Source: Naegleria gruberi (Eukaryota). From it: DNA of 10,074 nt. The DNA is taken from the NCBI GenBank assembly GCA_000004985.1, contig GG739029.1, one strand, 5' to 3'. The number at the start of each line of letters is the position of its first letter. Position 1 is the stretch's first letter. Under the pieces are notes generated by a model, which saw nothing but the letters and a program-made list of their open reading frames with translations, did not search any database and was not told the DNA's origin. A program made the translations under genes and the position numbers. Below, in pieces: positions 279 to 10,074 of this stretch.

Positions 279-316
279 GAAAAATCAAGCTTCGCTTTCA
301 GCTCGCTTGATTTTTC
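279..316. promoter_or_regulatory. Perfect 12-bp palindrome (GAAAAATCAAGC / GCTTGATTTTTC) with a 14-nt spacer, in the leader immediately upstream of the transposase ATG
   Basis: 279-290 is exactly the reverse complement of 305-316. It could form a DNA cruciform, a dimeric factor site, or a stable 5'-UTR RNA hairpin. Confidence 0.6.
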
Positions 317-369
317 TTTTTTGTAAGCTCAATAAAAAAATTAAAAAAATAATTAAAAAAAAAACCTCA

Positions 370-2838
370 ATGCAACTAACCCTCGACACCAAAACAAAAG
401 CAGTAGCTTCGAAGTGTTTCCACAATAACAGCAATAAAACACCTTACCTTCGATACATGAATGCCTATTGCTATTTCCATCTCACAAATACCAAAAAAGA
501 TATCAGAAGGGAAGCTCTGTTTGAGAAAGCAATTGGCTTTTATAGGAAGGAATTGAAGAGCAAAAATGATGAAATATTACATTTCGTGATCAAAAATTTG
601 GAAGACAATAATAAACAAATGTTTATTATTGATAATTTCCAAATAATTGAATTTTCACTTGAAGGGAGAGGTGTTTTTGACAGTGAAATTGCCAAATATG
701 CTACAACTCCTTCCCACCATTGTCCCAAGCAGGAGAGTTTGGCTAGTGAAATTGAACAACTTTCGAAACAAATTAGTGTTGCCCACACAGTCTATCAATC
801 TTGTGTCGATGTTGTGGGAATGGAATCTATTAAAGAGGAGGCAGAAATCAAACTCAGCAAACTATGTAGAAGTAAGATTGAAAAACAACAAAAACTTCAT
901 CAATATAAGGACAGAGCTTTATACATGAAATTATATAGAAGAAGAACAGTGGCTATCAAGCACAAAACAATAGGCAGGCCTAGTAAGGTTGGCAATATCG
1001 CAGAATTGTTAAAAACTACCCTGCCAGCAGATTACAGCGAAGCACATCCTCGCCGAAGAGATGGCCATATCTACACCTTGGCCAATGGTGTTGAGGTTAT
1101 CAAAGAAGGAATTGCTCTTATTAAGAACAAAACTGGGATAACGTACTCACCTTCTACTTTAAAACGTTTTTTTGTGGGGAAAAGAAAAACAAAAGCATTC
1201 AAGTTGAAGTCTAAGGATGCTTTTATTCGCGTAATGAAAATCAGAAGCAACAGAATGATTGAACACAAGGACAAACATATTGCGTGTGCGTTGATGAAAT
1301 ATATTCGTGAACTTGCTTTCAAATTAGATGATGATGTTACAGTGGTATCCGTTGACCAAAAGGCAAAGATTTATACTAAGGGTCCTGCTGTGAGTAAATC
1401 TACTGCTGTTGCTGTTGACTCATCATTAACAAGATCAAAACTACCAGCCCTTCCAGACCACAACTTCGGCAACACTAAGGAAAATAGTGTTACACCGAAT
1501 GTAATGTCAGTATTAAGAGTTTCTAAGGAAGGGAATAACATTACTTGGAAAAGACAATGCGTGCTTGTAAGGTTGCGCAGTAGTTGTAATGATGATAGAT
1601 TTTCGCATCTAGATGACCTTGAATGGTTTTTTGAAGAACTAAAACTCCGTAATTTATTACACGGAAACGTTATTATGATCACAGATAATGGGCCTAAAGT
1701 GCAACCAAGAAACAGGAAAGTTCAATCTGAAGCATATTACATTTTCAAAAAATACAATCTTGATTCATTAATTCAGTGCTCCTATAGTCCACATGCATCT
1801 GCTTTGAATCCAGTTGAGAAAGACCATTTCCCAATCTCAAAGAAGCTTGCTGGTTTATTCGATATAGATAAGGAGATATATGGATCGTCCAAAGAGCCCC
1901 AAAAAAGACAAAAGAATCACAATGTTGTGTTGAAGCAATTGTGTTTACTTATTAATGAAATACCATCATACCACTGCACATACGTCCCCACCAACCAAAA
2001 TTCAATTCCAAACACTCTGCCTTCTTGGCCAACTTGGGAAAATATTTTTTCCTTTTTGGAGGGAAAGGAAACAGAAGAGGATTGCTTGATCAAGAAATTA
2101 ATTAAGGATATTCATTACCTTAGTAGAGATGGTAATGGATTGTACACTTTTGTAATTAGAAAGGAAGATTCATCAACAACATTTTACCAACAGCTAGCAC
2201 AATACAATGGCTTCATACCTCACCCCATCCCTGACAAAAATAACCAAAGAAAAAACAATGAAGACTATCCCAACGACGATAATCTTCATTATTGTTTATT
2301 CGAAGATAGATTGAAAGATAATTCCATAGCCTTAAATTTACATTTCCCTTCATACCAACAATATGGAACCAAATTTATTTGCAAGTATTGTAAAAGATTT
2401 CATTATAGTGAGAAAGAATTGGAAGTTCATGCTAAATGTTGTGAAAAGACTTTATCAAATATAGAAGATGATTCATTGGAGTTACATGAAAAACAAACCA
2501 AACCAAACATTTTTTCAATTCCTGGACGAACATTGAATCATGCATTTTCACAATGTGTCACAGAAACTCTTCCGAGAAGAACAAAGAAGAGATCGTATAT
2601 TGATGTTGAAGAAGAACATGAAGAAGAATATCAAGAACAAGAATTGGAACAATCAGCAGATTATGATCAAGAACAAGAGAAGGAATTGGAACAAGAGAAA
2701 GAATTGGAACAAGAAGAGGAACCATTAAAGAAAAAGAAACGTGGTAGACCAAAGAAATCACAATTCAAAGAACCAATGAAATCTCAAGTTGAAGAAGCAG
2801 TAAAGAGAAAGCCTGGTAGACCACGAAAGAAGAAATAA
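370..2838 (+). CDS. Tc1/mariner-like DDE transposase, 822 aa from the first ATG. It has a C-terminal C2H2/C2HC-like zinc finger, an acidic E/Q-rich stretch and two AT-hooks.
   Basis: Uninterrupted ORF. The track ORF 307..2838 starts at a non-ATG upstream codon; the first ATG is at 370 after an A-rich leader. Motifs: KTIGRPSK (GRP linker), HTH-like GITYSPSTLKRFF, first D in VVSVDQKAK (GAC 1354-1356), second D in IMITDNGP (GAT 1684-1686), and SYSPHASALNPVE with E at 1816-1818 (compare Tc1 YSPDLNPIE). The D-to-E spacing is 43 residues by manual count. C-terminus: FICKYCKRFHYSEKELEVHAKCC (C-x2-C-x12-H-x3-C, about 2380-2448), acidic run EEEHEEEYQEQELEQ...EQEEE (2596-2724), and AT-hooks KRGRPKK (2737-2757) and KPGRPRK (2809-2829). 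Confidence 0.75.
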   Translation: MQLTLDTKTKAVASKCFHNNSNKTPYLRYMNAYCYFHLTNTKKDIRREALFEKAIGFYRKELKSKNDEILHFVIKNLEDNNKQMFIIDNFQIIEFSLEGRGVFDSEIAKYATTPSHHCPKQESLASEIEQLSKQISVAHTVYQSCVDVVGMESIKEEAEIKLSKLCRSKIEKQQKLHQYKDRALYMKLYRRRTVAIKHKTIGRPSKVGNIAELLKTTLPADYSEAHPRRRDGHIYTLANGVEVIKEGIALIKNKTGITYSPSTLKRFFVGKRKTKAFKLKSKDAFIRVMKIRSNRMIEHKDKHIACALMKYIRELAFKLDDDVTVVSVDQKAKIYTKGPAVSKSTAVAVDSSLTRSKLPALPDHNFGNTKENSVTPNVMSVLRVSKEGNNITWKRQCVLVRLRSSCNDDRFSHLDDLEWFFEELKLRNLLHGNVIMITDNGPKVQPRNRKVQSEAYYIFKKYNLDSLIQCSYSPHASALNPVEKDHFPISKKLAGLFDIDKEIYGSSKEPQKRQKNHNVVLKQLCLLINEIPSYHCTYVPTNQNSIPNTLPSWPTWENIFSFLEGKETEEDCLIKKLIKDIHYLSRDGNGLYTFVIRKEDSSTTFYQQLAQYNGFIPHPIPDKNNQRKNNEDYPNDDNLHYCLFEDRLKDNSIALNLHFPSYQQYGTKFICKYCKRFHYSEKELEVHAKCCEKTLSNIEDDSLELHEKQTKPNIFSIPGRTLNHAFSQCVTETLPRRTKKRSYIDVEEEHEEEYQEQELEQSADYDQEQEKELEQEKELEQEEEPLKKKKRGRPKKSQFKEPMKSQVEEAVKRKPGRPRKKK
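2641..2718 (+). repeat. Coding tandem repeat, 18-bp unit GAATTGGAACAAGAGAAA (E-L-E-Q-E-K), inside the acidic region of the transposase ORF
   Basis: GAATTGGAACAA occurs at 2641, 2683 and 2701. The copies at 2683-2700 and 2701-2718 are in perfect 18-bp register. Confidence 0.6.
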
Positions 2839-3293: not shown

Positions 3294-3606
3294 ATGTCTG
3301 TCACCAAGATGGATCTCTCCATTGCGGAGAAGAAAGCCTACGACTTTCTTATTCGTCAGGAAGAAGCCAAACGTTGGATTGAAGAACTTATCCAAGAAAG
3401 TCTGCCTCCAGGCACTGCTAACTTTGGTGATAACTTGAGAGATGGTATTGCTTTGGCCAAGTTGGGTAAAATCTTTGCTCCAACAGCAATTAAGAAGATT
3501 AACACTCCAAAGTCAGGAAGTGTTTTGGAATTTATGGCTGTTGATAACATTTCCCAATTCTTTGAAGCATGTAAGAAGGTTAATTTCCCTGATCACTATA
3601 TTTTTG
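3294..3606 (+). CDS. IQG1: IQGAP-family protein (Iqg1-like), exon 1, encoding the first half of the calponin-homology (CH) domain
   Basis: Translation MSVTKMDLSIAEKKAYDFLIRQEEAKRWIEELIQESLPPGTANFGDNLRDGIALAKLGKIFAPTAIKK... aligns by eye with the IQGAP1 CH domain: EEAKRW, LPP, LRNGVYLAKLGNFFSP. The exon ends in phase 1 at G3606, immediately before GTATGT. Confidence 0.8.
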
Positions 3607-3836
3607 GTATGTGTTATAATAGTAACAGTTTTTATTCTAATCTATTATGTTCATATTGTTATTCAACTCGTATGATGATGATAATTTGTTGTTGTTATTC
3701 CTTACTTGCTGATTTCCCTCGCTTTTTTCATCAAATCACAAAAAATAATCATCACAAAAATAATGTTCTTCCTCCTATGATGATGGTGAATGATAATGTT
3801 ATTGTTGCTTGTTCTTGATAATATTAACTTTAACAG
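3607..3836 (+). other. Spliceosomal intron (230 nt) in the IQG1-like gene
   Basis: 5' GTATGT at 3607-3612, 3' ...TTTAACAG at 3829-3836. The candidate branch point TATTAAC at 3822-3828 is non-canonical against TACTAAC. The frame-0 continuation is low-complexity and stops at 3818. Splicing restores the conserved CH-domain sequence ...HYIF-E-VTDLWELKN.... Confidence 0.7.
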
Positions 3837-3952
3837 AGGTTACCGATTTGTGGGAATTGAAAAACGTTTGGAAAGTTGTTCACTGCTTACACACACTCTC
3901 CCTCCACTTGTATAGAAATGGCTTGGCCATTAGAATGCAAAACTTGCAAAAG
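3837..3952 (+). CDS. IQG1: IQGAP-family protein (Iqg1-like), exon 2 (partial), running into the N-run
   Basis: After splicing, g3606+ag3837-38 gives E, then VTDLWELKNVWKVVHCLHTLSLHLYRNGLAIRMQNLQK. This matches the second half of the IQGAP CH domain (human IQGAP1 ...DIYDRKNMPRCIYCIHALSLYLFKLGLAPQIQDL). The ORF continues into Ns at 3953. Confidence 0.75.
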
Positions 3953-5196
3953 NNNNNNNNNNNNNNNNNNNNNNNNNNNNNNNNNNNNNNNNNNNNNNNN
4001 NNNNNNNNNNNNNNNNNNNNNNNNNNNNNNNNNNNNNNNNNNNNNNNNNNNNNNNNNNNNNNNNNNNNNNNNNNNNNNNNNNNNNNNNNNNNNNNNNNNN
4101 NNNNNNNNNNNNNNNNNNNNNNNNNNNNNNNNNNNNNNNNNNNNNNNNNNNNNNNNNNNNNNNNNNNNNNNNNNNNNNNNNNNNNNNNNNNNNNNNNNNN
4201 NNNNNNNNNNNNNNNNNNNNNNNNNNNNNNNNNNNNNNNNNNNNNNNNNNNNNNNNNNNNNNNNNNNNNNNNNNNNNNNNNNNNNNNNNNNNNNNNNNNN
4301 NNNNNNNNNNNNNNNNNNNNNNNNNNNNNNNNNNNNNNNNNNNNNNNNNNNNNNNNNNNNNNNNNNNNNNNNNNNNNNNNNNNNNNNNNNNNNNNNNNNN
4401 NNNNNNNNNNNNNNNNNNNNNNNNNNNNNNNNNNNNNNNNNNNNNNNNNNNNNNNNNNNNNNNNNNNNNNNNNNNNNNNNNNNNNNNNNNNNNNNNNNNN
4501 NNNNNNNNNNNNNNNNNNNNNNNNNNNNNNNNNNNNNNNNNNNNNNNNNNNNNNNNNNNNNNNNNNNNNNNNNNNNNNNNNNNNNNNNNNNNNNNNNNNN
4601 NNNNNNNNNNNNNNNNNNNNNNNNNNNNNNNNNNNNNNNNNNNNNNNNNNNNNNNNNNNNNNNNNNNNNNNNNNNNNNNNNNNNNNNNNNNNNNNNNNNN
4701 NNNNNNNNNNNNNNNNNNNNNNNNNNNNNNNNNNNNNNNNNNNNNNNNNNNNNNNNNNNNNNNNNNNNNNNNNNNNNNNNNNNNNNNNNNNNNNNNNNNN
4801 NNNNNNNNNNNNNNNNNNNNNNNNNNNNNNNNNNNNNNNNNNNNNNNNNNNNNNNNNNNNNNNNNNNNNNNNNNNNNNNNNNNNNNNNNNNNNNNNNNNN
4901 NNNNNNNNNNNNNNNNNNNNNNNNNNNNNNNNNNNNNNNNNNNNNNNNNNNNNNNNNNNNNNNNNNNNNNNNNNNNNNNNNNNNNNNNNNNNNNNNNNNN
5001 NNNNNNNNNNNNNNNNNNNNNNNNNNNNNNNNNNNNNNNNNNNNNNNNNNNNNNNNNNNNNNNNNNNNNNNNNNNNNNNNNNNNNNNNNNNNNNNNNNNN
5101 NNNNNNNNNNNNNNNNNNNNNNNNNNNNNNNNNNNNNNNNNNNNNNNNNNNNNNNNNNNNNNNNNNNNNNNNNNNNNNNNNNNNNNNNNNNNNNNN
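3953..5196. other. Run of 1244 N (assembly gap or masked sequence)
   Basis: Literal n characters. Every track ORF crossing it (3809..5230, 3876..5216, 3880..5223 and 3887..5305) is an artefact of translating N as X. Confidence 0.99.
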
Positions 5197-5250
5197 GAAA
5201 GAGATTATTAAAGTGATGAACAAATCTTGACAATATTAAATCAGTATAGC
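5197..5250 (+). repeat. Copy 1 of a duplicated segment, the paralog of 10021-10074
   Basis: GAAAGAGATTATTAAAGTGATGAACAAATCTTGACAATATTAAATCAGTATAGC vs GAAAGAGATTATTTAAGTGATGAACAAATCTTGACAATATTAAATCAGTATAGC. The single difference is A5210 vs T10034. The duplication probably extends in both directions, beyond the N-run and beyond the window. Confidence 0.85.
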
Positions 5251-5763
5251 CAGTCAATTTTGGATAATGACAATTCCTTTGGAATAGCATGTCAACTATT
5301 AACAAGACTTTTCCAAGAAGTCGAGTGCAACAAACTGAGTGATGTTATTGTAAAATTAAGTGAAAAGTATTATAAGGAAATATCACCTGACATTTTAAGA
5401 ACATACACTAATTGTTTCACATTAAGAGAAGGAGTAGAACTTACTAATATTAAAGATTTTGAAGGGAGACTAAAACTCGATAACGCTATACAAAAATTTA
5501 TGGACATGATTATTGATCCTAAATGGGGAATCAAAAATACTTTCACAAACTTATTAATTACATCGATTAGTGTTTATGAAAGGAAAGTTTTGGATTGCGA
5601 TAAATTCAAGAAAGTGTTGACTCATATCACTGATCGATTAGAAAATCCATCAATGAATCCTACAACCTCATTCAGTTTTCTGGAACCCTCAACAGACTTC
5701 CCCGATTACTGGGAACTAGTAAAAACCATTGAAGAACTGAAAAAGCTAACGAAAAAGCTATGA
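5197..5763 (+). CDS. 3' end of kinase-like paralog copy 1 (its 5' part is lost in the N-run). A 184-aa C-terminal extension region, interrupted by an in-frame TAA at 5209-5211.
   Basis: In frame 1, 5197-5208 encodes E-R-D-Y, then TAA, then an open frame to TGA 5761-5763 (SDEQILTILNQYSQSILDND...KKLTKKL). 5197-5250 is 53/54 identical to 10021-10074, the tail of the kinase-like gene at the window end. There the same codon is TTA (Leu) and the frame stays open. The track ORF 5227..5763 starts at TTG, which is not a eukaryotic start. Confidence 0.5.
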
Positions 5764-6424: not shown

Positions 6425-9106
6425 TTACCTCTTTAATACACAATCACTGAAATCAACATCTTTAACACTGTACTTAATATGAGTGATGGAATCTTGATCT
6501 CTTCCTCCATTAGTTGTGAAGAATCCATTCTCTTTGACTCCTGTAGAATCAAAAGTAAGACAAATTTCATCCTCCCCAACCAAAACAAATGACCTATCAA
6601 ATGCCTTCAAAAGCCAAAAATCACTTTGACCTGCCTCAATGTCAAAATATTTGATATGTTCAAGAAAATGACAAAATTCATCCAACGATTTTCTATTCTC
6701 GAATGTAATGTTCTTCAAACCAATATAAGGGTTTGTAATGTTGCATGTTTTAAATAATGTTGCCAAATTTTCATTCACAAAGAAAGTTCTGTCAGTTTCT
6801 CCTCTTTTCAATTTGTCAAAATAAATTTTGAAAGATTCACTCACTGGAAGTGTCAAATTCAATGCCTCTAATAAATCTGAAACGAAATGTTGGCAATTAG
6901 CCCCTAATAATGAATAATTCTTGGTTGCATTGTAATTGCATGAAATTTTTGTAATCAATTCGAATGCCTTCTTGACATTGTCAGCTCCAGCAATTTCTCC
7001 AATATCAATGGCTGCAATGGTATTATTAGTATCAAGTTTCTGGTCTGAATCGCACTCAACTCTCACCAATGAATTATCATACCATTCAATTTTCCATTCT
7101 CCAATTAAGATTCCTGTGTGAACAACGCCATAATTATTTACATTAAGAATGGCTGCGAATGTAGCCATTGCCTTCTTGGTTAATTCGTGTTTTCCTAAAG
7201 ATGAAACCAATAACTTGACTCTCACAACTGCAGGAATATTGGAAACAATTCTTGAATTTTTCTTCATTGTAGGACGAACAAAGTGAAAATGCATGAATCT
7301 GTCTTCACAGACATATCTTTGAGCTTCCAAATCTAAACTTTCACTGTATCCGACCTTCTCTGGTGTAATGTTGAATTCTTTAAGGCATACTCTAATCTTT
7401 TTCTTGGCCATCTCAACACCTTTAAATTCGGCTTGTGATAATCTCCAGCTTTCTATTGGAATTTGAACATCATATTCTTGATTTTCATTCTCTACACCAT
7501 AAGATTCAGAGGTAACATATGGCCTAGTACTATTATTACATAACTTTAAGAAAGTACTTGTAGTTGTTGGACCATTGGAATCTCTTAAAGTTTTAGAGAA
7601 TGCTCGGTCAACCTTGCCATTCCTTAAATTATCAAAATACTTGTCAAAGCATTCACTCTTTGGAAGTTGCAAATTCAAAGCAGATAGTACCTCAGATGTG
7701 AAATGTTGGCAATTGGCTTTGAATTGGTGATATTGAACTGATCCATTATATTTACAAATAATTTCTGTCAACTTTCTAAATGTTTGCTTAACATTTTCAG
7801 CACCACGTATTTCTCCAATGTCAATTATTGCAAGTGTCTTGTCAGATTCGATTTGTTCACTCCTTATACTAACAGTTGATGAGTTGACCCATTCAATCTT
7901 CCATTCACCAATTAAAAGGCCAGTATGAACAATTCCCATATCAGCATTTGAAAAGTAGCTCATTAACTTGGTCATAAAAGGACTATTACCTAAATCAGAA
8001 ATCAACAACTTGACTCGCAGAAATGGTTCACAATTAACTTTGTTTGATTTTAGGTTTACAATAGAACTCATAAATTCCCTATTTAGTAATCTATCTTCAC
8101 AGACCAAGTTTTGGGCATCCACTTCCAAATCGCCTGTCATTCTAGCATCTTTGGGAGTTCTATTATTCTTTTTCAAGAAATCATAATATTTCTCTAACTT
8201 TTTCTTGACCGTTTCAACCCGATCCCTTTCTAAAAATGTTAGTGCAGTTTTAATAACAGCAGGTGGTGGAATACCTGCCTCTGATGGATTTGTAACTGAC
8301 AACAAAGCTTTTAAGTGTTCGAGAAGGTTAGAATGTAAACCCATTATCTCCTTCGTTGTTTCGTCAATATATTTTCCCACCCCAATCCGGCGCTTTTCAC
8401 GAATCATCATTTGAGCAAAAGTTTCTCCCTTAATCCTAAGAGGCTGTCTAGTAAGCAATTTGAATAATATACATCCCAAACTAAATAAGTCTGCAGATTT
8501 ATCCACTATTTGAGATGCCAATAATACCTCTGGAGCTGTATACTCATTGCTGTGTCTGAATTCTGATGGCTGGTTGTCTAGCACAGAATATTTGAAATCG
8601 AATAATTTAAATGTAAAGTCCTCTTCGAAAAATAAAATGTTTTCAGGTTTTAAATTTCCATGAATAATATTCATGGAATGTAATTTAAGAAGTCCTTTTT
8701 CTATTTGACTATAAATTTTCAAAGATTCTTCCAAATTAGGTTCATAATAAGTTAAATATTCATTCAAATTACAGGTTCCTTTGGGAGAAATTGAATATTT
8801 CAAAAACATGTCATAATCACCTGTATCCCATATTGGGACAATTTCATGTTGATTTACAATTTGTTGTCTTATTTTTTCATGCTTATTGCATTCGTATTCA
8901 GTTAGTATTGTCATTATTATTTCAGAATTGCCATTACCCGAAACTTGTCTCACTCCATAAAATTTCTCTCCTATAGGAACTTCATATTGTCCAATTTTTT
9001 CAATATTTGCGCAATTTTTTAGCTTCAATATTGATGGATTTTCTTTGATCAAATCCTGTTTGGTTGATACTATTATTTTGGTTTGTGAAGAATGTGACGA
9101 CCCCAT
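6425..9106 (-). CDS. 893-aa multidomain protein with an N-myristoylation motif (MGSSHSS), a degenerate kinase domain, two tandem PPPDE/DeSI-like putative Cys peptidase domains, and a C-terminal region of unknown function
   Basis: Single uninterrupted minus-strand ORF. Kinase-like core: ...NIIHGNLKPENILFF (catalytic-loop HRD replaced by HGN, minus-strand codons 8654-8662), FDFKYS (DFG replaced by DFK), EYTAPEVL (APE), DLFSLGCILFKLL. Two repeats of about 270 aa each carry the PPPDE (PF05903-like) hallmarks: VRVKLL[IV]S.LG, VHTG[IL]LIGEWKIEW (compare DeSI GVFHSGIEVYGREFAYGG), IDIGEI, and ANCQHF (compare DeSI HKNCNHFSSAL). Both retain His, at nt 7925-7927 and 7118-7120, and Cys within NCQHF, at 7700-7714 and 6884-6898. 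Confidence 0.85.
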   Translation of the reverse strand: MGSSHSSQTKIIVSTKQDLIKENPSILKLKNCANIEKIGQYEVPIGEKFYGVRQVSGNGNSEIIMTILTEYECNKHEKIRQQIVNQHEIVPIWDTGDYDMFLKYSISPKGTCNLNEYLTYYEPNLEESLKIYSQIEKGLLKLHSMNIIHGNLKPENILFFEEDFTFKLFDFKYSVLDNQPSEFRHSNEYTAPEVLLASQIVDKSADLFSLGCILFKLLTRQPLRIKGETFAQMMIREKRRIGVGKYIDETTKEIMGLHSNLLEHLKALLSVTNPSEAGIPPPAVIKTALTFLERDRVETVKKKLEKYYDFLKKNNRTPKDARMTGDLEVDAQNLVCEDRLLNREFMSSIVNLKSNKVNCEPFLRVKLLISDLGNSPFMTKLMSYFSNADMGIVHTGLLIGEWKIEWVNSSTVSIRSEQIESDKTLAIIDIGEIRGAENVKQTFRKLTEIICKYNGSVQYHQFKANCQHFTSEVLSALNLQLPKSECFDKYFDNLRNGKVDRAFSKTLRDSNGPTTTSTFLKLCNNSTRPYVTSESYGVENENQEYDVQIPIESWRLSQAEFKGVEMAKKKIRVCLKEFNITPEKVGYSESLDLEAQRYVCEDRFMHFHFVRPTMKKNSRIVSNIPAVVRVKLLVSSLGKHELTKKAMATFAAILNVNNYGVVHTGILIGEWKIEWYDNSLVRVECDSDQKLDTNNTIAAIDIGEIAGADNVKKAFELITKISCNYNATKNYSLLGANCQHFVSDLLEALNLTLPVSESFKIYFDKLKRGETDRTFFVNENLATLFKTCNITNPYIGLKNITFENRKSLDEFCHFLEHIKYFDIEAGQSDFWLLKAFDRSFVLVGEDEICLTFDSTGVKENGFFTTNGGRDQDSITHIKYSVKDVDFSDCVLKR
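6845..7228 (-). other. PPPDE/DeSI-like domain 2 (aa about 627-754)
   Basis: VVRVKLLVSSLG...GVVHTGILIGEWKIEW...AAIDIGEIAGADNV...GANCQHFVSDLLEALNL. Confidence 0.7.
7661..8023 (-). other. PPPDE/DeSI-like domain 1 (aa about 362-482)
   Basis: FLRVKLLISDLG...GIVHTGLLIGEWKIEW...AIIDIGEIRGAENV...KANCQHFTSEVLSALNL. Confidence 0.7.
8207..9001 (-). other. Degenerate (pseudo)kinase domain of the 893-aa protein
   Basis: Roughly aa 36-300. Candidate G-loop remnant IGEKFYGV, HGNLKPEN, DFK, APE. The catalytic Asp of HRD is Asn and the DFG glycine is Lys. Confidence 0.65.
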
Positions 9107-9168
9107 TTTTTTGCAAAATTATTGCTTAAATCTAATAATTATCTAGGACGTGATCAGCAAAAAACAAA

Positions 9169-10074
9169 ATGCCTGTAAATCCGCTAGATTACATTCTATT
9201 AAAACTTGTCTCGTTGTCAATATTTAAAAACGTGGATCATATCAAAACTGTACATTTGAGTGCATCTTGTTACTCTTCTAATTATTTTAGAAAAGTAATG
9301 AGAGTCTATTCGGATAAAGAGGAAACTTGTGTTGTTGTAAAATTTTGCACATCCAACATGCCTAATGATGTTATGAAAGTTTATGATAGAATATGTAATA
9401 TAAACTGTGAATATCTTGTCAAACCAATGTACCGTGGCGAAATAGGTGAATATTATTACTTTATTTTCCCACAAGCAAAATGTGATTTAAAACAATTTCT
9501 TGAATCCTATACGACAGCAAAACAAAAATTACTGATATTCCGTGATGTTTGTTCAGGAGTGAAAGCTCTCCATCTAAATAATATCACTCATTGTGATTTA
9601 AAATCGGAAAATGTTTTAATATTTGAGGAGAATGGTCAAATAATTGCCAAGTTGACAGATTTCGATGAAGCCCAAATTTTCGATGAAAATATCACTTCAT
9701 CAACTATTCCGTGCCAGTCGCATTTCTTTAGATCGCCTGAATCTTTTCGTGATGAATTGGAATGCCATAATTTCCCATTGATGGATATGTTTAGTTTGGG
9801 ATGTATTTTGTTTGATTTGTTTCGAGTAACAGAGAGAAAACCATTAGCAGCAATATTTATCAAGTCCAATACAGAAGCAGAAAAATGTGTTAAAGAATCA
9901 ATAGTTGACAATAATCTAAAAGAGCTACTGGTTACTATTTTACTTAAATTAATTACAACCATGGAACAAAGGTTAACTATTAGCGATCTGTTAATCGAAA
10001 TTACACAATTAATCAAAGAAGAAAGAGATTATTTAAGTGATGAACAAATCTTGACAATATTAAATCAGTATAGC
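9169..10074 (+). CDS. Kinase-like protein, a paralog of the N-terminal domain of the minus-strand 893-aa protein. 3'-truncated by the window end. Alternative start at ATG 9298.
   Basis: Frame 1 is open from 9154 to the window end, so no ORF-track entry exists because there is no stop. ATG at 9169 (MPVNPLDY...) lies only 62 bp from the divergent gene's ATG. ATG at 9298 (MRVYSDKEETCVVVKF...) lies 191 bp away and may be the true start. Motifs: HCDLKSENVL (9589-9612, catalytic Asp retained), TDFDEA (DFG replaced by DFD, 9658-9666), RSPESF (APE-like), DMFSLGCILFDLF (compare DLFSLGCILFKLL in the minus-strand gene). No recognisable glycine-rich loop. Confidence 0.75.
   Translation, partial: MPVNPLDYILLKLVSLSIFKNVDHIKTVHLSASCYSSNYFRKVMRVYSDKEETCVVVKFCTSNMPNDVMKVYDRICNINCEYLVKPMYRGEIGEYYYFIFPQAKCDLKQFLESYTTAKQKLLIFRDVCSGVKALHLNNITHCDLKSENVLIFEENGQIIAKLTDFDEAQIFDENITSSTIPCQSHFFRSPESFRDELECHNFPLMDMFSLGCILFDLFRVTERKPLAAIFIKSNTEAEKCVKESIVDNNLKELLVTILLKLITTMEQRLTISDLLIEITQLIKEERDYLSDEQILTILNQYS
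10021..10074 (+). repeat. Copy 2 of the duplicated segment, the paralog of 5197-5250
   Basis: See 5197-5250. Truncated by the window end. Confidence 0.85.

What the first reader, a model, noticed from the sequence alone, without database searches (positions are those of the whole stretch)
6425..9106. Unrecognised fusion: myristoylated pseudokinase plus two tandem PPPDE/DeSI-like thiol-peptidase domains in one 893-aa protein
Seen in sequence: one uninterrupted minus-strand ORF. Its N-terminal kinase fold has lost the catalytic Asp (HGN for HRD) and the DFG glycine (DFK). Two roughly 270-aa repeats follow. Each has the full PPPDE signature with the His...Cys dyad intact (HTG[IL]LIGEWKIEW ... 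NCQHF).

Established knowledge: PPPDE/DeSI proteins are permuted-papain isopeptidases (deSUMOylating or deubiquitinating). Pseudokinases commonly act as scaffolds or allosteric regulators. MGxxxS is the consensus for N-myristoylation.

Inference: this may be a membrane-tethered scaffold that couples a phospho-signalling-like recognition module to two isopeptidase modules. I do not recognise this architecture from characterised proteins, so it is a candidate new signalling/deconjugation system, together with its divergently transcribed active-kinase-like paralog.
Basis: partly seen in the sequence, partly recalled or inferred. Interest (0 to 1): 0.85.

Follow-up and report, generated by a model that had tools for sequence, protein, structure and literature searches.

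The report
Mosaic pseudokinase with two PPPDE-like hydrolase domains
This Naegleria gruberi gene really does encode a lipid-anchored dead kinase followed by two PPPDE-like cysteine-hydrolase domains, but it is a very young, one-off mosaic of paralogous genes from a large, uncharacterised amoeba family of membrane-targeted hydrolases, not a conserved new signalling system.

Summary
Window 6425-9106 (-) is one 893-aa ORF, identical to Naegleria gruberi NAEGRDRAFT_54750. It has an MGSSHS start and a kinase fold lacking the beta3 Lys (Thr), alphaC Glu (Gln), HRD Asp (HGN) and DFG Gly (DFK). Two modules follow, 41% identical, each keeping a His-Tyr-Cys set (H394/Y459/C466; H663/Y731/C738).

- The modules are divergent PPPDE relatives. 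Each alone falls below Pfam's threshold. PPPDE1/DeSI-1 are nevertheless the best structural matches.
- They belong to a large family: 1,194 cluster representatives, and every named one is from Naegleria or Willaertia.
- Family members usually carry membrane or signalling partners: MG starts, SAM, PH, PX, C2.
- Only this protein has two cores. Only one other has a kinase.
- The gene is a mosaic. Residues 289-509 resemble NAEGRDRAFT_47674 (84%). Residues 509-893 match NAEGRDRAFT_72064 (97%; about the last 200 aa identical).
- Module 1 lacks the family's conserved C-terminal subdomain.
- No orthologue was found. The scaffold is small, gapped and unplaced.

Likely chemistry is a membrane-tethered thiol acyl-hydrolase. 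S-deacylation fits the family's context at least as well as deSUMOylation or deubiquitination.

The parts
6425..9106 (-). Complete single-exon gene, 893 aa plus stop (NAEGRDRAFT_54750 / XP_002668523.1 / UniProt D2W575)
   Evidence: ORF list. 100% identity and coverage to the deposited protein.
9086..9106 (-). N-terminal MGSSHSS, an N-myristoylation-type motif (Gly2, Ser6)
   Evidence: Read from the sequence. The pattern test was met. 48 of 143 Met-starting family representatives begin with MG and 31 fit the pattern.
8297..9004 (-). Pseudokinase domain (about aa 35-270)
   Evidence: Pfam Pkinase E 3.5e-22. AF2 model pLDDT 69.5, with the C-lobe above 90. Foldseek gives kinase hits at E about 1e-12. 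beta3 Lys->Thr and alphaC Glu->Gln.
8654..8662 (-). HGN (aa 149-151) in place of HRD; the catalytic Asp is replaced by Asn
   Evidence: Alignments to SNRK and to 14 kinases.
8591..8599 (-). DFK (aa 170-172) in place of DFG
7580..8242 (-). Module 1 (aa 289-509): N-terminal helices plus PPPDE-like core (core aa 358-498). It lacks the family's C-terminal subdomain. It is 84% identical to NAEGRDRAFT_47674 (P0002).
7709..7927 (-). Module 1 catalytic residues: His394 (7925-7927), Tyr459 (7730-7732), Cys466 (7709-7711)
   Evidence: Positions. The Tyr-to-Cys spacing of 7 matches PPPDE1 Tyr101/Cys108 (PMC9012467).
7535..7585 (-). Mosaic junction ...KTLRDSNG|PTTTSTF... (around aa 508-513), where similarity switches from the P0002-like to the P0182-like parent
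   Evidence: The sequence is contiguous here, with no gap.
6428..7579 (-). Linker plus complete module 2 (aa 510-893). It is 97% identical to NAEGRDRAFT_72064 (P0182), and about the last 200 aa are identical.
   Evidence: AF2 model of aa 555-893: pLDDT 82.4, pTM 0.84.
6893..7120 (-). Module 2 catalytic residues: His663 (7118-7120), Tyr731 (6914-6916), Cys738 (6893-6895). In the model the Cys opens a helix and the His lies in a strand.
   Evidence: His 146/147, Tyr 149/150 and Cys 147/149 are conserved among family representatives.
6428..6724 (-). Family-specific C-terminal subdomain (about aa 795-893), with near-invariant F802, D809, L833, K834, D837, R838. It is present only after module 2.
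9107..9168 (.). 62-bp head-to-head spacer shared with the neighbouring kinase-like gene
9169..10074 (+). Neighbouring, divergently oriented kinase-like gene, cut off by the scaffold end. It is 29% identical to the pseudokinase domain and keeps the beta3 Lys, the HCD Asp and the catalytic Asn. It has DFD for DFG and no Gly-rich loop.

Best explanation
NAEGRDRAFT_54750 is a young, lineage-specific mosaic member of a large family of membrane-targeted, PPPDE-like (circularly permuted NlpC/P60 papain-fold) cysteine hydrolases that is expanded in heterolobosean amoebae.

Shown:
- The protein has a myristoylation-type N-terminus.
- It has a kinase fold that has lost the beta3 Lys, the alphaC Glu, the HRD Asp and the DFG Gly, so it is almost certainly non-catalytic.
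- It has two hydrolase cores, each keeping the His-Tyr-Cys residues that the whole family conserves.
- Its hydrolase half was assembled from copies of two paralogous genes. Module 1 came from a 47674-like gene and lost its C-terminal subdomain. The linker and complete module 2 came from a 72064-like gene.

Inferred:
- The Gly2 myristate holds the protein at a membrane.
- The dead kinase domain replaces the SAM/PH/PX/C2 partner found in relatives and acts as a docking or regulatory module.
- Cys738 (and possibly Cys466), activated by His663 (His394) and assisted by Tyr731 (Tyr459), attacks an acyl-type bond through a thioester intermediate.
- The most likely substrates are acyl groups on membrane-associated proteins (S-depalmitoylation-like thioesterase activity), or ubiquitin-like conjugates on membrane proteins.
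- Only module 2 is a complete catalytic unit. Module 1 may pair with it as an intramolecular pseudo-dimer, or it may be a decaying remnant.

The confidence of 0.55 is for the whole statement. It is about 0.85 for 'divergent PPPDE-type thiol hydrolase modules behind a pseudokinase, of mosaic origin', and about 0.4 for the specific membrane S-deacylase reading.
For: - Identity and ORF.
- Pseudokinase. No close homologue of this domain was found.
- Catalytic conservation: His 146/147, Tyr 149/150, Cys 147/149.
- Family size and taxa: 1,194 representatives at E<=1e-3, and every named one is from Naegleria or Willaertia.
- Membrane bias: 34% of representatives start with MG. Partners are SAM 14, PH 5, PX 3, C2 2.
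- Mosaic origin.
- Uniqueness of the two cores and rarity of a kinase partner.
- Thioesterase precedent for PPPDE1/2 and CLN5, with the same His-Tyr-Cys geometry: PMC9012467.
Against: - No biochemical, expression or localisation data exist for any family member.
- Sequence similarity to canonical PPPDE is weak. Each domain is below Pfam's cut-off. The family profile hits no DeSI chain in PDB sequences; the best hit has E 0.24.
- DeSI1 has also been reported as a genuine deubiquitylase acting on hydrophobic or membrane proteins (PMC13596326), so isopeptidase activity is not excluded.
- The membrane-substrate argument rests on domain partners, not on any assay.
- The gene may not be functional. 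It is very young, has no orthologue, and lies on a 10-kb gapped scaffold.
- I could not obtain paralogue DNA to test for purifying selection.
Confidence: 0.55

Rival explanations
1. One reading: a membrane-tethered scaffold whose two PPPDE domains are SUMO or ubiquitin isopeptidases, forming with the neighbouring kinase a new signalling/deconjugation system.
For: - PPPDE proteins are the best sequence and structural matches.
- DeSI-1 and DeSI-2 are described as deSUMOylase/deubiquitinase (PMC10318531).
- DeSI1 was reported as a kinase-regulated deubiquitylase for hydrophobic or membrane proteins (PMC13596326).
- The catalytic residues are intact in both modules.
- A 62-bp shared upstream region suggests co-regulation with the neighbouring kinase gene.
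Against: - PPPDE1/2 had very low isopeptidase but high palmitoyl-thioesterase activity in one direct comparison (PMC9012467).
- Family partners are lipid- or membrane-binding modules rather than SUMO/ubiquitin-binding ones.
- The architecture is not conserved anywhere.
- The neighbouring kinase is only 29% identical and atypical.
- Module 1 is incomplete.
Confidence: 0.25
2. The modules act on lipids, like LRAT/PLAAT phospholipase-acyltransferases or CLN5, and not on proteins. They would remodel membrane phospholipids at the site where the myristoyl anchor (or the PH/PX/C2 domain in paralogues) places them.
For: - NCQHF resembles the NCEHF motif of LRAT/PLAAT (my own knowledge).
- There are weak Pfam LRAT hits on both modules.
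- Family partners are phosphoinositide- or Ca-lipid-binding domains.
Against: - LRAT scores are below its cut-off: 23.9 for the whole protein and 14.5/15.3 per module, against 24.3.
- The third catalytic residue follows the PPPDE/CLN5 His-Tyr-Cys pattern and not the LRAT Cys-His-His triad described in PMC10318531.
Confidence: 0.12
3. The two-module architecture is not a functional gene. It is either an assembly chimera on a small unplaced scaffold, or a very recent rearrangement product that is evolving neutrally and will decay.
For: - The scaffold is 10,074 bp with a 1,244-N gap.
- About the last 200 aa are 100% identical to NAEGRDRAFT_72064, which lies on a 500-kb scaffold.
- There is an abrupt switch of parent at aa about 509.
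- Module 1 lost a subdomain that is near-invariant in the family.
- The kinase domain has no close relative.
- No orthologue was found in N. fowleri, N. lovaniensis or Willaertia among the hits.
Against: - The junction lies in contiguous sequence, in frame, 2.3 kb from the gap.
- The module 1 part is only 84% identical to its nearest paralogue, so it is not simply that locus.
- Twelve substitutions distinguish the module 2 part from 72064.
- All core near-invariant residues are kept in both modules.
- Codon composition is uniform along the ORF.
- An intact ORF says little, though, for a gene this young.
Confidence: 0.2

Closest known systems
DeSI-1 / DeSI-2 (PPPDE2 / PPPDE1; Pfam PF05903 Peptidase_C97; PDB 2wp7, 3ebq)
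   Same: - Circularly permuted papain-like core with the His upstream of the Cys.
- The Cys opens a helix.
- The Tyr lies 7 residues before the Cys (His38/Tyr101/Cys108 in PPPDE1, against His663/Tyr731/Cys738 here).
   Different: - Sequence identity is only 17-19%, and each domain is below Pfam's cut-off.
- The module is about 340 aa, against about 150 aa. It adds a four-helix N-terminal region and a conserved C-terminal subdomain (F802...LLKAFDRSF) that canonical PPPDE proteins lack.
- Two copies occur in one chain, fused to a pseudokinase.
CLN5 (PDB 6r99) and the reported cysteine-based S-depalmitoylase activity of CLN5/PPPDE1/PPPDE2
   Same: - Same His-Tyr-Cys arrangement (PMC9012467).
- The activity concerns lipid-modified, membrane-associated substrates, which fits the family's membrane-targeting partners.
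   Different: - CLN5 is a soluble lysosomal glycoprotein with its own C-terminal domain.
- There is no detectable sequence similarity.
- No activity data exist for the Naegleria family.
LRAT / PLAAT (H-RAS-like suppressor) phospholipase-acyltransferases (PF04970; PDB 7zot)
   Same: - Permuted NlpC/P60 fold.
- NC-x-HF motif around the nucleophile.
- Action at membranes.
   Different: - Scores are below the Pfam cut-off.
- The third catalytic residue is Tyr (PPPDE-type) and not the second His of LRAT.
- There is no C-terminal transmembrane helix.
Paralogues NAEGRDRAFT_47674 (P0002: myristoyl motif, SAM-like region, module, C2) and NAEGRDRAFT_72064 (P0182: myristoyl motif, SAM-like region, module)
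   Same: - Module 1 is 84% identical to P0002.
- The linker, module 2 and C-terminus are 97% identical to P0182.
- All three have an MGxxxS start.
   Different: - The paralogues have one module each and a SAM-like N-terminal region.
- The window protein has a pseudokinase instead, and two modules.
P0089 (metagenome-derived; kinase, SAM, module; 969 aa)
   Same: It is the only other family representative with a protein-kinase domain upstream of the module.
   Different: - Its kinase keeps the catalytic Asp (HGD).
- It is not detectably closer to the window's kinase than to generic kinases.
- It has a SAM domain and a single module, so it looks like an independent fusion.

Membership tests
PPPDE / Peptidase_C97 (PF05903) | Match to the Pfam model above the curated gathering score | tested here: inconclusive
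   The whole protein scores 43.4 bits against a cut-off of 29.2, but only because two domains add up. Each module alone scores 24.8 and 23.0 bits (E 2e-5, 8e-5), below the cut-off. Several close relatives have no Pfam hit at all.
PPPDE / Peptidase_C97 (PF05903) | Circularly permuted papain-like fold: catalytic His on a strand upstream of a Cys that opens a helix | tested here: met
   [not shown]
PPPDE / Peptidase_C97 (PF05903) | His-Tyr-Cys catalytic residues, with the Tyr 7 residues before the Cys | tested here: met
   H394/Y459/C466 and H663/Y731/C738. PPPDE1 has His38/Tyr101/Cys108 (PMC9012467). These residues are conserved in 98-99% of 150 family representatives.
PPPDE / Peptidase_C97 (PF05903) | Isopeptidase activity (deSUMOylating or deubiquitinating) | not testable with these tools
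   This needs an enzyme assay. The literature on canonical members is itself divided.
Pseudokinase | Protein-kinase fold | tested here: met
   Pfam Pkinase E 3.5e-22. PDB kinases match by sequence, E 4e-15, and by fold, E about 1e-12 with TM about 0.6.
Pseudokinase | Loss of at least one of the essential residues: beta3 Lys (VAIK), catalytic Asp (HRD), Mg-binding Asp (DFG) | tested here: met
   Lys->Thr (IIMT) and Asp->Asn (HGN). The DFG Asp is kept but Gly->Lys. The alphaC Glu is also changed to Gln, and the Gly-rich loop is reduced to GEKFYG.
Pseudokinase | No phosphotransfer activity | not testable with these tools
   This needs nucleotide-binding and kinase assays.
N-myristoylated proteins | Gly2 after the initiator Met, and the NMT recognition pattern (small residue at position 3, Ser/Thr at position 6) | tested here: met
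   MGSSHSS fits the pattern. The start codon is constrained by the 62-bp spacer. MG starts are enriched in the family: 48 of 143. Actual lipidation was not tested.
LRAT / PLAAT (PF04970) | Match to the Pfam model above the gathering score | tested here: not met
   23.9 bits for the whole protein and 14.5/15.3 per module, against a cut-off of 24.3.
LRAT / PLAAT (PF04970) | Cys-His-His triad | tested here: inconclusive
   The conserved third residue fits the PPPDE/CLN5 Tyr position.

The most novel reading that the evidence does not exclude
- Heterolobosean amoebae possess a large, previously undescribed family of membrane-anchored cysteine hydrolases. They have a PPPDE-like core plus family-specific N- and C-terminal subdomains. 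They act as S-deacylases (or membrane-protein deubiquitylases) and are wired to different membranes by myristate, PH, PX, C2 and SAM modules.
- In this reading the window protein is a functional new gene. Its tandem cores form an intramolecular pseudo-dimer, and a pseudokinase domain controls it. That would parallel the reported dimer-to-monomer, kinase-driven switch of DeSI1.
Probability: 0.2. Interest if true: 0.6.

Novelty: new variant of a known kind. Interest (0 to 1): 0.35.

Why it matters
- The physiological chemistry of PPPDE/DeSI enzymes is still disputed: deSUMOylase, deubiquitylase or S-depalmitoylase.
- This family has over a thousand cluster representatives, near-invariant His-Tyr-Cys residues, and systematic fusion to lipid- or membrane-targeting modules. 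That gives independent, comparative evidence that this fold often works at membranes. It also offers many natural constructs for testing substrate class.
- The window gene itself is mainly of interest as a caught-in-the-act example of new-gene formation by shuffling paralogous modules onto a degenerate kinase domain.
- It is not evidence for a conserved new signalling pathway.

Tried and rejected
- Full-length or aa 1-560 structure prediction with a mixed alignment: MAFFT stacked the kinase homologues onto the hydrolase module, with HRD aligned to HTG (alignments A5-A7). I therefore modelled the kinase domain and module 2 separately. No model of module 1 or of inter-domain packing was obtained.
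- The afdb50 fold library was unavailable.
- Paralogue DNA for dN/dS and for a DNA-level junction comparison: N. gruberi is not in the contig index. P0001, P0002, P0025 and P0182 were all 'not on record'.
- Family profile against PDB sequences: only a non-significant hit to a 'PPPDE domain-containing protein', 7whm, E 0.24. The link to PPPDE therefore rests on the Pfam HMM and on fold.
- Search with the kinase domain alone: two weak hits only, so no pseudokinase family could be defined.
- Context of the relative P0003 (locus L001): its neighbours have no Pfam hits, which was uninformative.
- Literature searches for PPPDE with Naegleria or with pseudokinase found nothing specific.
- The idea that the two repeats reflect an assembly collapse or duplication artefact within the ORF was rejected. 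The DNA copies are only short and 78-86% alike.
- The 843-aa upstream ORF gave no Pfam or PDB sequence hit.
Full report
**1. What is in the sequence**

The window is a 10,074-bp unplaced scaffold of Naegleria gruberi.
- The best database hit to the ORF is a 100%-identical, full-length 'predicted protein [Naegleria gruberi]' whose longest contig is 10,074 bp. Its accessions are XP_002668523.1, NAEGRDRAFT_54750 and UniProt D2W575.
- The ORF runs from 9106 to 6425 on the minus strand, uninterrupted, 893 aa.
- A 1,244-N gap lies at 3953-5196, 1.2 kb from the 3' end of the ORF and 2.3 kb from the module junction.

**2. The N-terminus and the kinase-like domain**

The protein starts MGSSHSS, which fits the N-myristoylation pattern.

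The kinase-like domain is well supported:
- Pfam Pkinase matches residues 66-268, E 3.5e-22.
- Against PDB sequences the C-lobe aligns to SNRK and many other kinases, E 4e-15.
- An AF2 model has a confident C-lobe (pLDDT above 90) and a weaker N-lobe (mean 69.5, pTM 0.70). It matches solved kinases at E about 1e-12 and TM about 0.6.

In a 15-sequence kinase alignment the following residues are changed:

| Element | Window protein |
|---|---|
| Gly-rich loop | reduced to GEKFYG |
| beta3 Lys | Thr (IIMT) |
| alphaC Glu | Gln |
| HRD | HGN |
| DFG | DFK |

The catalytic-loop Asn, the DFG Asp and the APE motif remain. This meets the usual definition of a pseudokinase. A search with this domain alone found only two weak relatives, so it has no close homologue.

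**3. The two modules**

- Residues about 297-540 and 564-805 align at 41% identity, E 2e-57.
- At DNA level only short, 78-86% matches remain, spaced 795-801 nt apart. This rules out a trivial duplication artefact.
- Pfam Peptidase_C97 (PPPDE) scores 43.4 bits for the whole protein against a cut-off of 29.2. Each module alone scores 24.8 and 23.0 bits (E 2e-5 and 8e-5), below the cut-off. LRAT is a weaker second hit.
- The catalytic residues are His394/Tyr459/Cys466 and His663/Tyr731/Cys738. The Tyr-to-Cys spacing of 7 is that of PPPDE1 His38/Tyr101/Cys108 (PMC9012467).

**4. Fold of module 2**

An AF2 model of aa 555-893, built on 15 family sequences, is confident (pLDDT 82.4, pTM 0.84).
- The His lies in a beta-strand and the Cys opens a helix, as in papain-like enzymes.
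- Foldseek finds only two credible matches: PPPDE1 3ebq (E 0.013, prob 1.00) and 2wp7 (prob 0.94).
- A family sequence profile does not reach DeSI chains in the PDB; the best hit has E 0.24.

The module is therefore a divergent PPPDE-type member of the permuted NlpC/P60 group. About 110-145 residues superpose on known structures. A four-helix N-terminal region and a helical C-terminal subdomain are family-specific.

**5. The family**

A profile search of 1.84 billion cluster representatives gave 1,194 proteins at E<=1e-3, 782 at <=1e-10 and 211 at <=1e-30.
- Every representative that carries a name is from N. gruberi, N. fowleri, N. lovaniensis or Willaertia magna. UniProt labels several of them 'PPPDE domain-containing protein'. 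The rest are unnamed metagenome or SRA assemblies, so a wider range is not excluded.
- Across 150 representatives the His, Tyr and Cys are 98-99% conserved.
- Residues of the C-terminal subdomain are conserved to the same degree: F802, D809, L833, K834, D837, R838.
- Among 56 long members the Pfam partners are SAM (14), PH (5), PX (3), C2 (2) and Pkinase (2).
- 48 of 143 Met-starting representatives begin with MG, and 31 fit the myristoylation pattern.

The family is thus systematically joined to membrane/lipid-targeting and signalling modules.

**6. How unusual the window protein is within the family**

- Of 160 family sequences only this one has two cores.
- Only this one and P0089 contain a kinase domain.
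- P0089 (kinase, SAM, module) keeps its catalytic Asp and is not specifically related to the window's kinase. It looks like an independent fusion.
- No orthologue with the window's architecture was found in the other heterolobosean genomes among the hits.

**7. Mosaic origin**

- Residues 289-527 are 84% identical to NAEGRDRAFT_47674 (P0002: myristoylation motif, SAM-like region, module, C2).
- From residue 509 the similarity switches to NAEGRDRAFT_72064 (P0182: myristoylation motif, SAM-like region, module). Identity there is 373/385, or 97%, to the end of the protein. All 12 differences lie before residue about 700, and about the last 200 residues are identical.
- The linker between the two modules is the linker that precedes the module in P0182.
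- Module 1 therefore ends at the junction (…KTLRDSNG|PTTTSTF…) and lacks the conserved C-terminal subdomain.

The gene is best read as a very recent chimera: a degenerate kinase domain, then a truncated 47674-like module, then a complete 72064-like module.

An assembly chimera cannot be excluded on a small gapped scaffold. Three points argue against it. The junction is in frame and in contiguous sequence. The module 1 part is not identical to any known locus. The module 2 part differs from 72064 at 12 positions. I put the chance that the architecture is artefactual or non-functional at about 0.2. I could not fetch paralogue DNA to test selection.

**8. Mechanism**

Shown: an intact, family-conserved His-Tyr-Cys centre in a PPPDE-type fold; a dead kinase fold; a myristoylation-type start.

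Inferred: a membrane-tethered thiol hydrolase that works through an acyl-thioester on Cys738, and perhaps on Cys466.

The substrate class is open.
- Canonical PPPDE proteins have been described as deSUMOylases or deubiquitinases (PMC10318531).
- They have also been described as efficient S-depalmitoylases with only weak isopeptidase activity (PMC9012467).
- DeSI1 has been described as a kinase-switched deubiquitylase for hydrophobic or membrane proteins (PMC13596326).

The family's myristoyl, PH, PX and C2 partners place the enzyme at membranes. This favours lipid-modified or membrane proteins as substrates. I rank S-deacylation slightly ahead of isopeptidase activity, and both ahead of LRAT/PLAAT-like phospholipid chemistry. 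LRAT fails its Pfam cut-off and has a different third catalytic residue.

The pseudokinase most plausibly substitutes for the SAM or PH partner as a docking or regulatory module. My own recollection is that DeSI-1 crystallises as a homodimer, and the 2026 preprint describes a dimer-to-monomer switch. On that basis the tandem cores could form an intramolecular pseudo-dimer. This is speculation that I could not model.

**9. The neighbouring kinase gene**

It starts 62 bp upstream on the other strand (9169) and runs off the scaffold.
- It is only 29% identical to the pseudokinase domain.
- It keeps the beta3 Lys, the HCD Asp and the catalytic Asn.
- It has DFD for DFG, no Gly-rich loop and no alphaC Glu in the alignment.

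'Active-kinase-like paralog' is only partly apt. Beyond the shared spacer, nothing ties the two genes together.

**10. Verdict**

The fusion is real in the deposited sequence and rare. It is a young, lineage-specific mosaic inside a large shuffling-prone family and not a conserved new system, and 'isopeptidase' is not the safest functional call. The more interesting result is the family itself: a divergent, membrane-targeted PPPDE-like clade that is abundant in Naegleria and Willaertia and largely invisible to Pfam.

Noticed in passing
window 307-2838 (+): An 843-aa ORF with no Pfam hit and no PDB sequence hit. Its C-terminus has acidic E/Q-rich repeats followed by AT-hook-like KRGRPKK and KPGRPRKKK, and a C2H2-like FICKYCKRFHYSEKELEVHAKCC motif. 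It may be a mobile-element or DNA-binding gene, which would fit a repeat-rich unplaced scaffold.
   Followed up: partly
window 3294-3952 (+) and 5227-5763 (+): A calponin-homology (CH) domain gene (Pfam CH, E 2e-12) with a probable intron around 3600-3810. It is then cut by the 1,244-N scaffold gap at 3953-5196. The 178-aa ORF after the gap may be its 3' part.
   Followed up: no
window 9107-9168 and 9169-10074 (+): A 62-bp head-to-head spacer to a second, atypical kinase-like gene (HCD, DFD, no Gly-rich loop) that is truncated by the scaffold end. It is 29% identical to the pseudokinase domain.
   Followed up: partly
window 6428-7030 (-): About the last 200 residues of the protein are 100% identical to NAEGRDRAFT_72064, which lies on a 500-kb scaffold. 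All 12 differences lie further upstream. This pattern suggests gene conversion, an alternative haplotype, or an assembly issue.
   Followed up: partly
family member P0117 (metagenome, 1001 aa): It carries an intein-like Hom_end_hint plus homing-endonuclease insert downstream of the hydrolase module (Pfam E 2e-30 and 5e-18).
   Followed up: no
family member P0030 (JGI metagenome, 442 aa): A SAM-plus-module protein with Arg in place of the catalytic His, and TCHEF for NCQHF. It may be a naturally inactive member.
   Followed up: no
kinase hits P0009 and P0180: The closest sequence matches to the pseudokinase C-lobe also carry IIHGNLKPEN, that is, HGN in place of HRD, while keeping the VAIK Lys. 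The Asp->Asn change therefore recurs in unrelated lineages.
   Followed up: no
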